In this document: positions 1 to 34,536 of the stretch, one piece after another
Position numbering within the stretch: position 1 is the first letter of the stretch
How the letters are laid out: each line of letters begins with the position of its first letter
Source of the DNA: Methylococcaceae bacterium
Lineage (GTDB): Bacteria > Pseudomonadota > Gammaproteobacteria > Methylococcales > Methylomonadaceae
DNA length: 34,536 nt
Direction of reading: 5' to 3'
NCBI GenBank assembly: GCA_031970635.1
Contig: DALYHZ010000003.1
Span: 927 to 35,462 of the forward strand
Made by a program: the position numbers and the translations under genes
The notes under the pieces: model-generated
Databases searched by the model: none
What the model was told of the DNA's origin: nothing
What the model saw: only the letters and a program-made list of their open reading frames with translations

Positions 1-108
1 ATGCGATTGTAATCGTCATTTCGGGCTATAATGGCAACTCAAAGCGATGCTTGCGTTTTCTTGCGTCGCGTTACACAGAATTATCAGCAACAGGAAAAAC
101 CACGCGCT

Positions 109-2488
<2,380 letters not shown>

Positions 2489-3282: not shown

Positions 3283-4099
3283 ATTACTCGAAAAATTATT
3301 AACCGAAGGTACGCAAAAAGGCGACCGCACGGGAAACGGGACGCTTTCAATTTTTGGACATCAAATGCGTTTTGATTTGGCTGATGGATTTCCGCTTATC
3401 ACCACCAAAAAAGTACATTTAAAATCGATTATTCATGAGTTGTTGTGGTTTTTAAACGGCGACACAAATAACAACACGTTAGAGAAAAATGGCGTTTCAA
3501 TTTGGCGTGAATGGGCAGATGAAAATGGTGAATTAGGCGCAATTTATGGCAAACAATGGCGTTCGTGGGAAACACCCAATGGCGAAACCATTGACCAAAT
3601 TTCACAAGTCATCGAACAGTTAAAAACTAATCCAAACAGCCGCCGCATTATTGTTTCAGCGTGGAATGTCGCGGATTTGCCTGACGAAAAAATCAGCCCG
3701 CAAGAAAATGTCAAAAAAGGCAAAATGGCTCTCGCGCCCTGTCATGCGTTTTTTCAGTTTTACGTTGCAAATGGCAAACTTTCTTGCCAACTTTATCAGC
3801 GCAGTTGTGACACGTTTATCGGTGTGCCATTCAACATTGCCAGTTACGCGCTTTTGACGATGATGATTGCCCAGCAATGCGATTTAGAACTTGGCGAATT
3901 TATTTGGACAGGTGGCGATGTGCATTTGTATTTAAATCATCTTGAGCAAGCTAAAACACAGTTGCAACGCACACCGCGTGCTTTGCCAACGATGAAAATT
4001 AAACGCAAACCTGCTTCGATTTTTGATTATGTTTACGACGACTTTGAGTTAATCGGTTACGATGCCGATACACATATCTCTGCACCCATTGCTATTTGA
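3266..4099 (+). CDS. thyA: Thymidylate synthase (ThyA type)
   Basis: From ATG 3266 the product reads [38 protein letters not shown]. It has the catalytic [14 protein letters not shown], plus [21 protein letters not shown] and a C-terminal APIAI. It is nearly collinear with E. coli ThyA and overlaps the lgt stop by 17 nt. Confidence 0.95.
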
Positions 4100-18305: not shown

Positions 18306-19763
18306 ATGCAATACCGCGATTTACGCGATTTTATTCAGCAACTCGAAAAACAAGGCGAACTCAAACGCACCAATTATCAAGCCGATCCTTATTTAGAAAT
18401 CACCGAAATTTGTGATCGCACGCTCAAGCAACAGGGCGCAGCATTATTGTTTGAACGTCCGAAAGGTTATAACGTGCCGTTGCTTGGCAATTTATTTGGT
18501 ACACCGCACCGCGTCGCAATGGGCATGGGTGCAGATTCACTAAGTGCCTTGCGCGAAATAGGACATTTACTGGCATATCTAAAAGAACCGGAACCGCCTA
18601 AGGGTTTTCGTGACGCTATGGAAAAGATCCCTGTGTTCAAGCAGGTGTTAAATATGTCGCCAAAAATTATAAAAAATCCGCCGTGTCAGGAAAATGTGTT
18701 GCGTGGCGATGAAATAGATTTAGGACGTTATCCGATTCAACATTGCTGGCCAGGTGATGTTGCGCCGCTGATTACTTGGGCATTGGTGATTACCAAAGGT
18801 CCAAATAAAGAGCGGCAGAATATGGGCGTTTATCGGCAACAAGTATTGGGAAAAAATAAAACGATTATGCGCTGGCTTGCACATCGTGGTGGCGCGTTGG
18901 ATTTTAAAGAATGGCAGGACGTACATCCGAATGAACCGTTCCCCGTTACGGTGGTTTTGGGGGCTGACCCTGCGACGATTTTAGCGGCTGTCACGCCTGT
19001 TCCTGATTCGCTTTCAGAATATGCGTTTGCTGGTTTATTGCGCGGCAGTAAAACCGAACTTGCCGATTGTTTGAGTAATAATTTACAAGTGCCTGCCAGT
19101 GCGGAAATTGTTTTAGAAGGTTTTATTTATCCCAATGAAACCGCACCCGAAGGTCCTTATGGCGATCATACCGGTTATTACAACGAAGTAAGTGATTTTC
19201 CAGTATTTACGATTGAAACCATTACTGAGCGTACCAATCCGATTTATCACAGCACTTACACTGGTCGTCCACCTGACGAACCTGCAATTTTAGGCGTGGC
19301 GTTAAACGAAGTGTTTATCCCGATTTTGCAAAAACAGTTTCCTGAAATTATTGATTTCTATTTGCCACCCGAAGGCTGTTCATATCGCATGGCAGTGATT
19401 AGTATGAAAAAACAATATGCCGGTCACGCTAAACGGGTGATGCTCGGAACGTGGTCATTTTTGCGGCAATTCATGTACACAAAATTTGTAATTGTCGTGG
19501 ATGACGATATTAACGTGCGGGATTGGCAGGATGTGATTTGGGCAATTACTACACGCATGGATCCAGCGCGAGATTTAACGATTTTAGAAAATACGCCGAT
19601 TGATTATTTAGATTTTGCCTCGCCTGTTTCGGGATTAGGTTCAAAAGTGGGCTTTGATGCCACGAATAAATGGGCTGGCGAAACCAATCGAGAGTGGGGC
19701 AGAACGATTACCATGTCCCCAGACATTATTCAGCGGGTGAATGAGATTTGGGATATGTTGTAA
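18306..19763 (+). CDS. ubiD: 4-hydroxy-3-polyprenylbenzoate decarboxylase
   Basis: [70 protein letters not shown] and [14 protein letters not shown] are collinear with E. coli UbiD. Confidence 0.95.
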
Positions 19764-29325: not shown

Positions 29326-30125
29326 GCCGATTAGCTGGATTATTTGCCGAATTGGCACAAAAAAACCGCAAAGCGTTAATTCCATTTGTAACGGCTGGCG
29401 ACCCGAATCCTGATTTTACTGTGCCATTGATGCACGCAATGGTCGGCGCAGGTGCAGACGTAATTGAATTAGGTGTCCCTTTTTCTGACCCAATGGCTGA
29501 CGGTCCTGTGATTCAACGTGCCAGTGAACGTGCGTTAGCGCATCATCAAAGTTTGCGAACCACGCTGGCAATTGCAAAAGAATTTCGTAAAACAAATGGT
29601 CACACGCCAGTTGTTTTGATGGGGTATTTGAATCCTGTTGAAATCATGGGTTATGAAAAATTTGCCGATGCTGTGAAAGAAGCCGATGTAGACGGCGTTT
29701 TAACCGTTGATTTACCACCCGAAGAAGCTCAAGAATGCACAGAATTATTGAAAGCTCGCGGTGTTGACCCTATTTTCTTGCTTGCGCCAAACAGTTCGGC
29801 TGAACGTGTGCAAAAAATGGATGCTATTGGTAGCGGTTATTTGTATTACGTTTCGCTCAAAGGCGTAACAGGTGCGGGACATTTGGATATTGATGACGTT
29901 GAGAAAAAACTCGCTGAAATTAAAGCCAATACAAAATTACCTGTTGCCATCGGTTTCGGTGTGAAAGATGCTCAAACGGCAAAAACGATTTCAAATTTAG
30001 GCGATGGCGTTGTGGTGGGAAGTACGCTCATTACACAAATCGAAGAAAACCTGCACAATCCCGCGCAAGCAAAACAAGCAATTATTGACTTATTAACCTC
30101 AATGCGTCAGGCAATGGATAACTAA
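29322..30125 (+). CDS. trpA: Tryptophan synthase alpha chain
   Basis: [41 protein letters not shown] and GFGV are present. A 4-nt overlap links it to trpB. Confidence 0.95.
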
Positions 30126-30127
30126 TC

Positions 30128-31048
30128 ATGAGTTGGTTTGAAAAATTACGTCCGTCGATTATTAGAACTGAATCGTCCGGCAAAAAAACGACTGTTCCCG
30201 AAGGGCTTTGGGCAAAATGTCCAAGTTGTAATGCGATTTTGTATAACAGCGAACTTGAAAAAAACGGCAGTGTTTGTCCGAAATGTGATTACCATATGCG
30301 AATTTCCGCACGTACACGTTTAAATTTATTTTTGGATGAAGAAGGACGCGAAGAAATTGGCAAAAATGTCAAACCTGTTGACCCATTAAGATTCAAAGAC
30401 AGTAAAAAATACAAAGACCGCATTTTGCAAGCACAAAAACAAACCAAGGAAAATGACGCATTAGTTGTAATGCGTGGACAAGTGCTTGGACAAGATGTTG
30501 TCGCGGCGGCATTTGACTTCAATTTCATGGGCGGTTCGATGGGGTCTGTGGTTGGTGAAAAATTCGTGCGTGGCGTGAACAAAAGTTTAGAACTGGGCAT
30601 TCCGTTTATCGTCTTCACCGCAAGCGGCGGGGCACGAATGCAAGAATCGTTGTTTTCATTATTCCAAATGGCAAAAACCAGCGCGGCATTAACCAAACTT
30701 TCAGAACGCGGTATTCCGTATATTTCGTTTATGACTGACCCAACAATGGGTGGCGTGTCAGCGAGTTTAGCGATGCTTGGTGATTTGAACGTGGCAGAGC
30801 CAAATGCGTTAATTGGTTTTGCAGGACCTCGCGTAATTGAACAAACAGTGCGGGAAAAATTACCGGAAGGTTTCCAACGCAGTGAATTTTTGCAAGAACA
30901 CGGTGCAATTGACATGATTATTCATCGTCGTGATATTCGTGAAAAAATCGCTAGTATTTTAGGAATGCTTACCGTCAGTAGTTACGTTCCTTCTTCTACA
31001 GTCATTGACGATGAATTCTTAGCTGACGAAATCGAAGACGCAGGCTAA
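30128..31048 (+). CDS. accD: Acetyl-CoA carboxylase carboxyltransferase beta subunit
   Basis: The product starts MSWFEKL. It has the Zn ribbon [26 protein letters not shown], plus [16 protein letters not shown] and SGGARMQE. Confidence 0.95.
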
Positions 31049-31056
31049 AAACAAAA

Positions 31057-32343
31057 ATGAACCGTTTTAATTCTTTAACAGAGTGGCTAACGTGGCAGGA
31101 GAGTTTGCATCCGTTGCCGATTGATTTGGGATTAGAACGAGTGAAACGCGTTTTTGAAACGTTATTGCCAAATTATAAAAATCAAAAACCACCAACGATT
31201 ACAGTTGCTGGCACAAATGGTAAAGGTTCAACGGTTGCGTATTTGCAAGAGTTTTATGTCGCATCAGGTCACAAAGTAGGCGCATACACATCGCCACATA
31301 TTTTGCGCTACAACGAGCGAATTAAAATCGATGGCAAACCGGTTTCTGATGACATTGTTTGCAATGCGTTTGCTCAAATTGATGCCGCACGCGGTGACAC
31401 ATCGCTGAGTTATTTTGAATTTAGCACACTGGCGGCATTACTGATTTTTTCACAAGCTAACGTAGCGGTGCAGATTTTAGAAGTCGGTTTAGGCGGACGC
31501 TTGGATGCGGTAAATATTGTCGATGCCGATATTGCAATCGTGACCAGTATTGCTATCGACCACGTTGAATATCTTGGCAAAACGCGCGAAGAAATTGGTT
31601 TAGAAAAAGCGGGCGTTTTTCGTGAAAATAAACCTGCAATCGTGAGCGATTTAAGACCGCCAGAGTCTTTACTTGATTATGCTTACGAAAATAATGTGCT
31701 GTTGCTTCGATTAGGCGAAACCTTTTTTTACGAAAAACAAGGCGAAACATGGACGTGGCAAGGATTGGCGCAAACGATGTCTGATTTACCTAATCCTGCC
31801 CTGAAAGGTAATCATCAATTTCGCAATGCGTCAGCGGCGATTTTTGCCACGCAATGTTTGGCTGAAAAATTACCTGTAAGTGAATCATCAATAAAAATGG
31901 GGTTGAAAAATGTTCGGTTAGCAGGGCGTTTTCAATTGATTGATGGCGATATTCCTATTCTCTTAGATGTCGGACATAATCCGCAAGCCGTGCAAACGTT
32001 AGTGGATTATTTGGAAGAAAATTTTCCAAATCGCCGCGTTCATGCCATTTTTTCAATGATGAAAGATAAAGACATCACTAGCGTTTTGGATTTAATGAAA
32101 CCTGTTGTTTCAAATTGGTTTTTTGCGCCATTGCCTAAAAATCCACGGGCGGTTTCCGAATCTGCCATGCAAGTGTTATTTAAAGCAAGTCAAATTGAGT
32201 CAGTACAATTTGGTTTTTCAGCGTTTTCAGAAGCCTTCAAAGCGGCTCAAGATCAAGCTCAATCTGGCGATTTGATTTTAGTTTTTGGATCGTTTTTTTT
32301 AGTTTCAGATTGCTGTGTGAATTTAAGAATAGGTGAAAATTAA
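31057..32343 (+). CDS. folC: Bifunctional folylpolyglutamate synthase / dihydrofolate synthase
   Basis: The P-loop VAGTNGKGST, YTSPHILRYNERI, LEVGLGGRLDAVN and accD-folC-dedD synteny support the call. Confidence 0.92.
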   Translation: MNRFNSLTEWLTWQESLHPLPIDLGLERVKRVFETLLPNYKNQKPPTITVAGTNGKGSTVAYLQEFYVASGHKVGAYTSPHILRYNERIKIDGKPVSDDIVCNAFAQIDAARGDTSLSYFEFSTLAALLIFSQANVAVQILEVGLGGRLDAVNIVDADIAIVTSIAIDHVEYLGKTREEIGLEKAGVFRENKPAIVSDLRPPESLLDYAYENNVLLLRLGETFFYEKQGETWTWQGLAQTMSDLPNPALKGNHQFRNASAAIFATQCLAEKLPVSESSIKMGLKNVRLAGRFQLIDGDIPILLDVGHNPQAVQTLVDYLEENFPNRRVHAIFSMMKDKDITSVLDLMKPVVSNWFFAPLPKNPRAVSESAMQVLFKASQIESVQFGFSAFSEAFKAAQDQAQSGDLILVFGSFFLVSDCCVNLRIGEN

Positions 32344-32344
32344 A

Positions 32345-33157
32345 ATGGATCATGAATTAAAACAACGTTTAATTGGGGCATTGGTCGTGACAATTTTATC
32401 GGCAATTTTTATTCCGATGTTGTTTGATGACCCCATCGAAGAAGAGGGGCAAGCGGTAACCACACTTGCATTGCCTTCGGAAAATCAATTTGTTGAAGAA
32501 CCCGCAGTAAAAGCCCCTGCAAGTTCAGAGCAAGTTTTAGCCATTCCACAACCGCAAGCAGAAGTTGCCGCACTTGCACCCGCAACGCCAGCCACACCTG
32601 TTGCTTCAAATGCGTTGCGTCCTGATGAGATGGACGAGACACCGCCTGCACCAAAATTACAACCAAAACCTGCGCCAAAACCAAAAGTTGAAAAACCTGT
32701 TTATTCTGAAACGACTAATTATGGTGTGAATCCACCTGAAGAAGTGGACGATGAACCGCCAATGAAACCGAAGGCAGAAGTAAAAAAAGCAAGTGATAAG
32801 TCGTCCGAAGACGCACTGTTAAAGCAAGTTCGTGCAGCAAAATTACTCGATGACAGCTCCGCGCCTTCCACTGAGGTAAATGCAGCAGAAATTAAAAAAG
32901 TGCTGACACCTGAACAACCTAAGAAAACAGGGCGTTGGTTTATTCAATTAGCCAGTTTGACGAATAAAGCCAAAGCTGAAACCTTGCAAGAAGGTTTAAA
33001 AGCACAAGGGTTACCTGCAACATTGACGACTATTCAAAATGAAAAAGGAACATTTTATCGTTTGCGCGTGGGACCTGAATTAGATGGCAAACACGCGGCG
33101 GCGATGAAAAAGAAAATGGATGAACAAGGTATTACTTCTATTTTAGTTTCTGAATAA
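32345..33157 (+). CDS. dedD: SPOR-domain cell-division protein (DedD-like)
   Basis: There is an N-terminal TM (LIGALVVTILSAIFIPMLF) and a Pro/Ala/Lys-rich linker. The C-terminal SPOR domain is GRWFIQLASLTNKAKAETLQEGLKAQGLPA...FYRLRVGP. Its position between folC and cvpA fits DedD. Confidence 0.8.
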   Translation: MDHELKQRLIGALVVTILSAIFIPMLFDDPIEEEGQAVTTLALPSENQFVEEPAVKAPASSEQVLAIPQPQAEVAALAPATPATPVASNALRPDEMDETPPAPKLQPKPAPKPKVEKPVYSETTNYGVNPPEEVDDEPPMKPKAEVKKASDKSSEDALLKQVRAAKLLDDSSAPSTEVNAAEIKKVLTPEQPKKTGRWFIQLASLTNKAKAETLQEGLKAQGLPATLTTIQNEKGTFYRLRVGPELDGKHAAAMKKKMDEQGITSILVSE

Positions 33158-33161
33158 AACC

Positions 33162-33683
33162 GTGTTTTTTGCTGCCATTGACGCATTCATTTGGGTTGAT
33201 TTTAGTATCGTCAGTTTTATAGGGTTTACGTTGCTTGTTGGCGTAATACGTGGATTTAGTTGTGAGGTTGTTTCGTTATTGTGCTGGGTTATGGGATGTT
33301 GGACGAGTTTGCATTTTTCAATCGAAATTTCGCCAATTTTAGAGCCGTTCATTTTCTTGCCCAGCAAACGATTAGCCGTCACATTCATTAGTTTATTAGT
33401 CATAACCATTTTGGTGGGTAGTTTGTTGCAACATTGGCTTACTACCCGTTTTAAACAAACTTACAATCACACCGCCTTCATGGAACGTTTAGGCGGTTTA
33501 TTTTGTGGACTCATGCAAGGCATAGTCGCAACAACAATTGTTGTGTTACTTGCGGGATTAACTGCTCTGCCGACTAACACATGGTGGCATGAATCCAGTT
33601 TATTACCTTCTTTTCAAATTCTTGCCATCTGGTTGCGTGACCATGTTGCGCCACAAATGGCAAACTATATAACTTATCGTTAA
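33162..33683 (+). CDS. cvpA: Colicin V production membrane protein CvpA
   Basis: GTG start. [23 protein letters not shown] parallels the E. coli CvpA N-terminus. There are four TM segments. It lies directly upstream of purF, as in E. coli. Confidence 0.85.
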
Positions 33684-33715
33684 AATTTCTTTTTCAAAAT
33701 TCAGGTGAAAAAATA

Positions 33716-34057
33716 ATGTGTGGTATTGTTGCTATCGTTTCCCATCAAGCCGTTAACCAAGATTTATATGACGCGCTTACCGTGTTACAGCATCGAGGAC
33801 AAGACGCGGCGGGAATTGTGACTTGTGAAAATGGTCGTCTGCACTTGCGCAAAGATAATGGACTGGCGCGAGATGTTTTCAATAATGACCAAATGATGCG
33901 TTTGCGTGGAAATATGGGCATTGCACATGTGCGTTATCCCACTGCCGGTTGCACCAGTTCAGCCGAAGCGCAACCGTTTTATGTCAATTCGCCATTTGGT
34001 TTAACGCTGGCGCACAATGGCAATTTAACCAATACCGAAGAACTCAAAAAAGCGTTA
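33716..34057 (+). CDS. purF: Amidophosphoribosyltransferase, N-terminal ~113 codons only (homology ends abruptly)
   Basis: MCGIVAIVS...[18 protein letters not shown]...[42 protein letters not shown] is collinear with E. coli PurF up to about residue 110. This ORF is not in the supplied ORF track because it runs off the window without a stop. Confidence 0.9.
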
Positions 34058-34536
34058 GCTCCCTTTACCGAACAAACAGGAATTAAAGTTGTGTATGAGG
34101 GAACGAATGAGTTCGCTACCCTCCTCCCCGTGCGCGTTGACTCCGGGAATGCCCCCGATATTGCCATGTTCCCTCAACCAGGTTTAATGGCTGACTTTGC
34201 TAGGGACGGTAAGTTAGTACCCATTGATACCTTTATGGACAAGACTCAGCTGTCCAATGCTTATGCTCAGGACTGGCTTGACCTAGCTACCGTTGATAGC
34301 AAGATGTACGGCATTTGGTACAGGGCTTTTGTCAAGAGCCTGGTTTGGTATAGTCCGGAAGCGTTTGCAGCTAAGGGTTATAAAATCCCGACCACTTGGG
34401 ATGAAATGATAGCTCTCTCCAACCAGATAGTAGCTGACGGTGGCGTCCCTTGGTGCCTAGGTATGGAAAACGGCAACGCTACAGGCTGGGTGGGTACAGA
34501 CTGGGTGGAAGATATCATGCTCCGTACTGCTGGGCC
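34058..34536 (+). CDS. Internal fragment of a family-1 extracellular solute-binding protein (carbohydrate ABC importer type), fused in frame to purF
   Basis: The translation is [59 protein letters not shown]...[73 protein letters not shown]. This is typical of sugar-binding SBPs. GC content and codon choice (CCC, CTC, AGG, GAC) differ from the rest of the window. Confidence 0.6.

What the first reader, a model, noticed from the sequence alone, without database searches (positions are those of the whole stretch)
34040..34536. In-frame junction inside purF to a GC-richer sugar-binding-protein fragment, a probable chimera at the window end
The PurF homology (MCGIV...[15 protein letters not shown]) stops after about 113 codons. 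The open frame continues without a stop as [61 protein letters not shown]..., an internal piece of a family-1 ABC-transporter solute-binding protein that lacks its own start and signal peptide. The switch lies at about 34045-34065. A hand count of line 34141 gives about 53% GC versus roughly 40% for the rest of the window. Codon choice shifts to CCC, CTC, AGG and GAC. The conserved cvpA-purF context ends here. The most economical reading is an assembly or amplification chimera joining DNA from a different organism. A real recombination event that destroyed purF would be remarkable, because purF is normally needed for purine prototrophy.
Basis: partly seen in the sequence, partly recalled or inferred. 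Interest (0 to 1): 0.6.

Follow-up and report, generated by a model that had tools for sequence, protein, structure and literature searches.

The report
Assembly chimera at purF contig end
The apparent fusion of the purine gene purF to a sugar-binding protein is an assembly artefact: the last 479 bases of the contig come from a cyanobacterium and were joined at a 21-base word that both genes share, and the methanotroph's purF is intact.

Summary
The ORF at 33716..34534 reads PurF residues 1-114 and then, in frame, an internal piece of a family-1 solute-binding protein (SBP).

- The window end is the end of contig C3 of a 384-contig Methylococcales MAG.
- Window 34037-34536 is 500/500 identical in DNA to cyanobacterial (Coleofasciculus-like) contigs from four independent records. 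Those contigs encode a complete 426-aa SBP in a native cyanobacterial neighbourhood.
- An independent 220-kb contig of the same methanotroph population is 4058/4058 identical to window 30000-34057. It then continues as an intact 502-aa purF.
- 59 nt further on, that contig meets the end of the MAG's own contig C15, which carries the rest of purF.
- The joint is GAAGAACTCAAAAAAGCGTTA (34037-34057). It encodes EELKKAL in frame in both genes, which is why no stop codon appears.
- None of 12 same-genus genomes has the fusion.
- Both source sequences occur in one ENA assembly.

The same MAG has a second chimeric tail (contig C68, bases 1-369) and a local misassembly in gyrB. This scan has found the same kind of artefact in other genomes. 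It is not a biological feature, so interest is low.

The parts
33162..33683 (+). cvpA (Colicin V production protein), native upstream neighbour of purF
   Evidence: ORF. The same 173-aa protein sits upstream of an intact 502-aa purF in independent assemblies.
33716..34057 (+). Native 5' part of purF, codons 1-114 of 502 (the last 7 codons lie in the shared word)
   Evidence: Matches TIGR01134 positions 1-115. Window 30000-34057 is 100% identical to the independent contig k119_168859. It is 85-94% identical to purF of same-genus genomes up to this point.
34037..34057 (+). Shared 21-nt word GAAGAACTCAAAAAAGCGTTA (EELKKAL), present in frame in both the native purF and the cyanobacterial SBP gene; this is the mis-join point
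   Evidence: Alignments and coordinates. It occurs once in the MAG. It starts at a codon boundary in both genes: purF codon 108 and SBP codon 48.
34058..34536 (+). Foreign tail: internal fragment (residues 55-214 of 426) of a cyanobacterial, Coleofasciculus-like, AglE-type sugar ABC-transporter substrate-binding protein gene, running to the contig end
   Evidence: Positions 34037-34536 are 500/500 identical to L010 (GCA_003505715.1), L011, L012 and L013. The best protein hits are all cyanobacterial. Matches PF01547. GC is 50.7% and the tetranucleotide z-score is -6.5.

Best explanation
The purF-SBP 'fusion' is an inter-genome chimeric contig end made during assembly of a mixed sample. It is not a gene of the organism.

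The native purF of a Methylococcales (methanotroph) population and the sugar-binding-protein gene of a co-occurring filamentous cyanobacterium happen to share the 21-base word GAAGAACTCAAAAAAGCGTTA. In both genes the word is in frame and encodes EELKKAL. At that word the assembly graph led from the methanotroph path onto the cyanobacterial path. Contig C3 therefore ends with 479 foreign bases.

The real continuation of purF is 59 unassembled bases followed by the end of contig C15. Because the shared word is in the same reading frame in both genes, the false join leaves one open frame and looks like a domain fusion. In the organism purF is an ordinary intact 502-aa gene downstream of cvpA.

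Shown: the two sources, the exact joint, the intact gene in an independent assembly, and the absence of the fusion in relatives. Inferred: that the join was made in silico by a de Bruijn-graph step at k of about 21, and not in vitro.
For: 1. The window end is the end of contig C3, in a 384-contig assembly with 115 N runs.
2. Window 34037-34536 is 500/500 identical to four independent cyanobacterial records. These encode a complete 426-aa SBP next to two ABC permeases, GUN4 and an amylase-family gene. The closest named proteins are from Coleofasciculus and other filamentous cyanobacteria at 80-85% identity.
3. The ENA contig k119_168859 (219.8 kb) is 4058/4058 identical to window 30000-34057. 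It continues as an intact 502-aa purF. The reverse complement of C15 begins 59 nt later at 99.4% identity. TIGR01134 positions 140-431 lie at that end of C15.
4. In 12 of 12 same-genus genomes the DNA homology stops at window 34056/34057. Six of the seven loci read in full carry an intact 502-aa purF, and the seventh is cut off by its contig end at 308 aa. Five of the seven contain the same 21-mer followed by T TTG..., not GCTCCC.
5. The cyanobacterial SBP contig (L012) and the methanotroph contig (L102) both come from the same ENA assembly, ERZ27299534, so the two organisms co-occur.
6. The rest of the 11-kb cyanobacterial locus is absent from the MAG.
7. The tail is the compositionally most deviant contig end in the assembly.
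8. A second chimeric tail (C68:1-369) and a 26-nt local misassembly in gyrB show that this assembly makes such errors.
9. From my own knowledge, 21 is the default smallest k of MEGAHIT and SPAdes/metaSPAdes. Inter-genome chimeras are common in MAGs: 69% of near-complete MEGAHIT MAGs in CAMI benchmarks carried at least one (bioRxiv 10.64898/2026.10.15.759294; see also metaMIC, PMC9661791).
Against: Coverage, split reads and mate pairs across 34037-34058 were therefore not examined. The assembler and k values used for this MAG are unknown to me, so the match between the 21-nt word and an assembler's k is circumstantial. The 59-nt gap between the native end of C3 and the start of C15 is not explained in detail; a coverage gap or a second graph branch is assumed. 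I could not show that the MAG was built from the same sample as ERZ27299534.
Confidence: 0.93

Rival explanations
1. An in-vitro chimeric molecule. Template switching or incomplete extension during library PCR or whole-genome amplification joined a purF fragment to a cyanobacterial SBP fragment at the 21-nt microhomology, and the assembler then faithfully assembled that molecule.
For: Microhomology at the joint is also typical of PCR-mediated recombination (my own knowledge). The native population appears at low depth in other assemblies, with contig names giving cov 3.5-4.0, so a single chimeric read could extend a contig tip.
Against: The foreign-only tail is 479 nt. That is longer than a usual short read, so it must itself be assembled from several cyanobacterial reads. 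The microhomology is exactly 21 nt, a standard k. A second chimeric tail in the same MAG points to a systematic, in-silico cause. Either way the feature is an artefact.
Confidence: 0.05
2. A real recombination event in a (sub)population of the methanotroph. Cyanobacterial DNA was integrated by microhomology-mediated illegitimate recombination into purF, destroying it or creating a fusion protein.
For: The frame is open across the joint and the two organisms co-occur, so DNA uptake is conceivable.
Against: The remainder of purF is present in the same MAG at a contig end that fits the break to within 59 nt. Three independent assemblies of the same species have uninterrupted native sequence across the joint: L102, with L106 from the same contig, at 100% identity, and L103 and L104 at 99.7%. 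L102 and L103 hold the whole 502-aa gene, while L104 ends inside purF. The tail is 100% identical to the donor over 500 nt, and the contig stops inside the foreign gene. None of 12 relatives has the join. The exact junction sequence was not found in the JGI metagenome collection.
Confidence: 0.01
3. Binning contamination: the whole contig belongs to another organism and was wrongly placed in the MAG.
For: CheckM-type contamination of the MAG is 3.1%.
Against: 34 kb of the contig (dnaN-gyrB ... folC-dedD-cvpA-purF') is syntenic with, and 79-91% identical over the cvpA-purF stretch searched to, same-genus Methylococcales genomes. Over the stretches compared it is 99.4-100% identical to a 220-kb contig of the same population. 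Only the last 479 nt are foreign.
Confidence: 0.01

Closest known systems
Inter-genome (interspecies) chimeric contigs or 'inter-genome translocation' misassemblies in short-read de Bruijn-graph metagenome assemblies and MAGs (metaMIC, PMC9661791; DeepMM preprint, bioRxiv 10.64898/2026.10.15.759294)
   Same: There are two sources from different phyla, each about 100% identical to its own reference. The joint is a short exact word of k-mer size. It sits at a contig end, and marker-based quality scores do not see it. It creates a reference-discordant gene annotation.
   Different: Nothing of substance. The only special point is that the shared word is in the same reading frame in both genes and encodes the same heptapeptide, EELKKAL. 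The artefact therefore mimics an in-frame domain fusion instead of giving a truncated gene.
PurF, glutamine amidophosphoribosyltransferase (TIGR01134), in the conserved cvpA-purF arrangement of Gammaproteobacteria
   Same: Codons 1-114 are a normal PurF N-terminal (Ntn glutaminase) part starting MCGIV. The real gene in an independent assembly is 502 aa and full length.
   Different: As deposited, the ORF has only the first 115 profile positions (141 bits against a cut-off of 350). The phosphoribosyltransferase domain lies on another contig.
Cyanobacterial AglE-type alpha-glucoside/sugar ABC-transporter substrate-binding protein (PF01547/PF13416), e.g. Coleofasciculus
   Same: The tail is 100% identical in DNA to such a gene. 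It is 85% identical in protein to a Coleofasciculus protein, and 73-78% to records that sources label as alpha-glucoside-binding proteins.
   Different: Only residues 48-214 of 426 are present. There is no start, no lipoprotein signal and no C-terminal lobe, and it does not belong to this genome.

Membership tests
Inter-genome chimeric contig (misjoin at a shared k-mer) | The two sides of the joint match different organisms at near-100% nucleotide identity | tested here: met
   Left side: 4058/4058 identical to a Methylococcales contig. Right side: 500/500 identical to cyanobacterial contigs.
Inter-genome chimeric contig (misjoin at a shared k-mer) | The joint is an exact short word present in both source sequences, of the size of an assembler k | tested here: met
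   The 21-nt word GAAGAACTCAAAAAAGCGTTA is present in native purF (L102 and five of seven relatives) and in the cyanobacterial SBP gene. The assembler's actual k is unknown.
Inter-genome chimeric contig (misjoin at a shared k-mer) | Independent assemblies of the same population lack the join and continue with native sequence | tested here: met
   L102/L106 (ENA, one contig) and L103 (NCBI MAG) have an intact 502-aa purF. L104 (ENA) also crosses the joint with native sequence but ends inside purF.
Inter-genome chimeric contig (misjoin at a shared k-mer) | Both source organisms are present in the sequenced sample | tested here: inconclusive
   Both occur in ENA assembly ERZ27299534. I could not establish that the window's MAG was built from that sample.
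Inter-genome chimeric contig (misjoin at a shared k-mer) | Read evidence: a change of depth at the joint and no concordant pairs or reads spanning it beyond k | not testable with these tools
Genuine gene fusion or horizontal transfer into purF | The same junction is present in relatives or in independent assemblies, with native sequence resuming beyond the insert | tested here: not met
   None of 12 same-genus genomes has it, and none of the three independent same-species assemblies does. The junction sequence was not found in JGI metagenome contigs. The contig ends inside the foreign piece.
PurF (TIGR01134 equivalog) | A full-length match over the curated cut-off, covering both the glutaminase and the PRTase domains | tested here: not met
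   The ORF as deposited scores 141 bits against a cut-off of 350, covering positions 1-115 only. The real gene, pieced from C3 + 59 nt + C15 as seen in L102, is 502 aa.
Family-1 ABC solute-binding protein (PF01547) | A complete two-lobed domain with an N-terminal export signal | tested here: not met
   Only profile positions 3-164 of 307 are present. The signal/lipobox (LVAC) of the 426-aa source protein lies upstream of the joint and is absent from the window.

The most novel reading that the evidence does not exclude
A rare, real recombinant molecule exists in the natural methanotroph population. On this reading, cyanobacterial DNA was taken up and integrated into purF through the 21-nt microhomology, and the assembler captured this minority variant while the majority allele stayed split over two contigs.
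Probability: 0.01. Interest if true: 0.4.

Novelty: not a real feature. Interest (0 to 1): 0.04.

Why it matters
This matters only for data quality. If the deposited contig is annotated as it stands, it yields a false PurF-SBP fusion protein, an apparent loss of purF (a false purine auxotrophy in metabolic reconstructions) and a false cyanobacterium-to-methanotroph gene transfer.

The case shows that a shared in-frame k-mer can make a chimera look like an open, in-frame domain fusion. It also shows that marker-based quality figures (95% complete, 3% contaminated) do not reveal such joins. The last 479 bases of the contig should be trimmed.

Other oddities in this MAG need checking against independent assemblies before they are interpreted. 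The gyrB 'frame break' and the start of contig C68 are two examples.

Tried and rejected
- The exact 53-nt junction sequence was searched in JGI metagenome contigs and gave 0 hits. This fits a one-off artefact, but it is weak evidence because the source sample may not be in that collection.
- I searched for other SBP_bac_1 genes in the MAG that might be the 'rest' of the tail's gene. C169 and C48 carry native, AT-rich molybdate- and sulfate-type binding proteins unrelated to the tail. Rejected.
- I blasted the whole 11-kb cyanobacterial locus against the MAG. Only the 500-nt tail matches, so no larger cyanobacterial block is hidden in the bin.
- A compositional scan of all contig ends gave several outliers. 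C220 (a Pro/Ala repeat protein), C81 (a repeat protein), C206, C145 and C232 showed no clear switch and were not pursued. C68 was pursued and confirmed as a second chimera.
- A DNA search of C68:1-1500 in 15 same-genus genomes found nothing, because the region is accessory. This was uninformative.
I fetched the gyrB region by a protein look-up instead.
- Whole-contig binning contamination was rejected by synteny and identity with relatives.

Full report
**What is in the sequence**

The window is G000:C3:927-35462, so its last base is the last base of contig C3. The assembly has 384 contigs, 2.64 Mb and 40.6% GC. It is rated 95% complete and 3.1% contaminated, and it has 115 N runs.

The frame that starts with ATG at 33716 stays open to the end of the window (273 aa). 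Residues 1-115 match the PurF equivalog TIGR01134 at positions 1-115 (141 bits; the full-length cut-off is 350). Residues 103-264 match PF01547 SBP_bac_1 at positions 3-164 (75.5 bits; cut-off 26).

The composition shift is also real. The tail 34058-34536 has 50.7% GC, against 41.8% for the rest of the window. GC3 is 0.52 against 0.34. The codons CCC, CTC, AGG and GAC are each enriched 3.5-fold or more relative to the four native genes upstream. On a tetranucleotide likelihood trained on the whole assembly, the last 400 nt of C3 are the most deviant of all 768 contig ends (z = -6.5).

**Where the tail comes from**

I searched the SBP part (residues 112-273) against the large protein collection. 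The best 120 hits listed are full-length or near-full-length SBPs of about 426 aa, and every named one is cyanobacterial. The top hit, P0001, is 100% identical. Named relatives at 80-85% are from Coleofasciculus, Limnofasciculus and Leptolyngbyaceae, and several sources call the family 'alpha-glucoside transport system substrate-binding protein'.

P0001 is encoded on contigs from four independent records: NCBI MAG GCA_003505715.1, two ENA assemblies and a Logan assembly. There it is a complete gene with a lipoprotein-type signal. It is followed by two ABC permease genes and flanked by GUN4, a histidine kinase and an amylase-family gene, which is a native cyanobacterial neighbourhood.

At the DNA level, window 34037-34536 is identical to those contigs at 500 of 500 positions. 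No other part of the 11-kb cyanobacterial locus is in the MAG.

**Where purF continues**

A search of the MAG with TIGR01134 finds profile positions 140-431 at the very end of another contig, C15 (19629-18659, minus strand; contig length 19669). That stretch is interrupted only by a scaffold N run.

The exact CvpA and FolC proteins of the window are also encoded on an independent ENA contig, ERZ27299534:k119_168859 (219.8 kb). On that contig cvpA is followed by an intact 502-aa purF. The contig is identical to window 30000-34057 at 4058 of 4058 positions. The reverse complement of C15 begins 59 nt further on, at 99.4% identity (two mismatches and one gap, which falls at the N run).

The real genome therefore reads C3(...34057) + 59 nt + C15(reverse). 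Two further independent records, NCBI GCA_031970735.1 and ENA ERZ5540423, also cross the joint with native sequence at 99.7% identity. The NCBI record holds the whole 502-aa purF, while the ERZ5540423 contig ends inside the gene.

**The joint**

The native sequence and the cyanobacterial sequence overlap in exactly 21 bases, GAAGAACTCAAAAAAGCGTTA (window 34037-34057).

- In native purF the word is preceded by ...ACCAATACC and followed by TTTGTTGAAGAT... (L102 and relatives).
- In the SBP gene it is preceded by ...GGGAAAGGTGAG and followed by GCTCCCTTTACC....

The word starts at a codon boundary in both genes: purF codon 108 and SBP codon 48. In both it encodes EELKKAL (...[15 protein letters not shown]... 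against ...[17 protein letters not shown]...). This explains why the false join leaves an uninterrupted reading frame.

Twenty-one is the default smallest k of MEGAHIT and SPAdes/metaSPAdes (my own knowledge; the assembler of this MAG is not known to me). Shared 21-mers are expected by chance. With 4^21 = 4.4e12 possible words, a 2.6-Mb genome read on both strands should share about a thousand words with every 10^9 bp of other DNA in the sample. That is an inference from a simple calculation, and real sequence biases raise the number.

**Relatives**

The neighbouring genes place the host in the Methylococcales. The closest records are lake and groundwater MAGs labelled Methylococcales or Methylococcaceae, at 81-84% FolC identity.

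In all 12 same-genus genomes searched, DNA homology to window 33400-34536 stops at query position 657/658, which is window 34056/34057. I read seven of those loci. Six have an intact 502-aa purF, and the seventh is cut off by its contig end at 308 aa. Five carry the same 21-mer. None has the SBP sequence. The 53-nt junction sequence is not in the JGI metagenome contig collection.

**Co-occurrence**

The cyanobacterial SBP contig (L012, k119_337522) and the methanotroph contig (L102, k119_168859) come from the same ENA assembly, ERZ27299534. The two organisms therefore live in the same kind of sample. I could not establish that the MAG itself was built from that sample.

**Mechanism and its rivals**

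The best explanation is an in-silico misjoin. At the shared 21-mer the assembly graph offered the cyanobacterial continuation, and the native continuation was not assembled for 59 nt, probably because of low depth. Contig names in other assemblies of this population show coverage of 3.5-4.0.

An in-vitro chimeric molecule formed by PCR template switching at the microhomology is a minor rival. Three points argue against it: the foreign-only tail is 479 nt long, the overlap is exactly 21 nt, and the same MAG holds a second chimeric tail. On either reading the feature is an artefact.

A real recombination into purF is effectively excluded by four points:
- the rest of the gene is present at a fitting contig end;
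- independent assemblies hold intact genes;
- the tail is 100% identical to the donor;
- no relative has the join.

Whole-contig contamination is excluded because 34 kb of the contig is native.

**Comparison with what is known**

Inter-genome chimeric contigs are a well-described error of short-read metagenome assembly. metaMIC reports inter-genome translocations as the most frequent error type in CAMI data sets and notes that MEGAHIT produces many of them (PMC9661791). [quoted passage not shown] Earlier reports of this scan describe the same artefact on other genomes, with shared words of 19-25 nt. I did not test those reports here, and they do not count as evidence.

**Other errors in the same assembly**

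1. Contig C68 is 100% identical to two independent assemblies from base 370 onwards. Its first 369 bases (GC 0.57-0.73) diverge completely at the point where those assemblies continue as a native 629-aa TonB-dependent receptor. This is a second chimeric tail.
2. It coincides with 26 bases missing relative to the independent 220-kb contig, which encodes an intact 827-aa GyrB. About eight mismatches lie in the next 40 nt, and two other assemblies have contig ends at the same spot. It is a local misassembly, not a split gyrase.

**Verdict**

The feature is not biological. Interest is very low, apart from its use as a flag for curation.

Noticed in passing
G000:C68:1-369 (outside the window; locus L107): This is a second chimeric contig end in the same MAG. 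C68 from base 370 onwards is 100% identical to two independent assemblies (ERZ5540423 NODE_349 and Logan SRR1706142), which continue as a native 629-aa TonB-dependent receptor. The first 369 bases of C68 are unrelated high-GC (0.57-0.73) sequence that reads like an MFS-type membrane protein, again in one open frame with the native gene's 5' part.
   Followed up: yes
window 1261-1300 (gyrB): The apparent gyrB frame break (ORFs 31..1272 and 1226..2488) is a local misassembly. The independent contig k119_168859 has 26 more bases here and an intact 827-aa gyrB. The window also differs at about 8 positions in the following 40 nt. Two other assemblies (L112, L113) have contig ends at window 1287/1290, so this spot is hard to assemble.
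   Followed up: partly
G000:C15:about 18,900-19,100 (locus L108): The C15 part of purF contains a scaffold N run that shifts the frame, so TIGR01134 matches in two pieces (positions 140-329 and 325-431). The assembly holds 115 N runs of 10-100 bases, so other 'frameshifts' in this MAG may be scaffold gaps.
   Followed up: partly
L010:357-9442 (cyanobacterial MAG GCA_003505715.1): The donor locus is an ordinary cyanobacterial sugar-uptake cluster: an SBP and two permeases, with no ATPase gene nearby. On the upstream side lie an amylase-family (CBM48) gene, a HAMP histidine kinase and a small KGG stress protein, and a GUN4 gene lies downstream. A second SBP that is 90% identical (P0002) also exists in the protein collection.
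   Followed up: no
window 32333-33157: The SPOR-domain (DedD-like) gene is called with a 270-aa product in independent assemblies, against the 274-aa GTG ORF listed here. This is only a small start-codon ambiguity.
   Followed up: no
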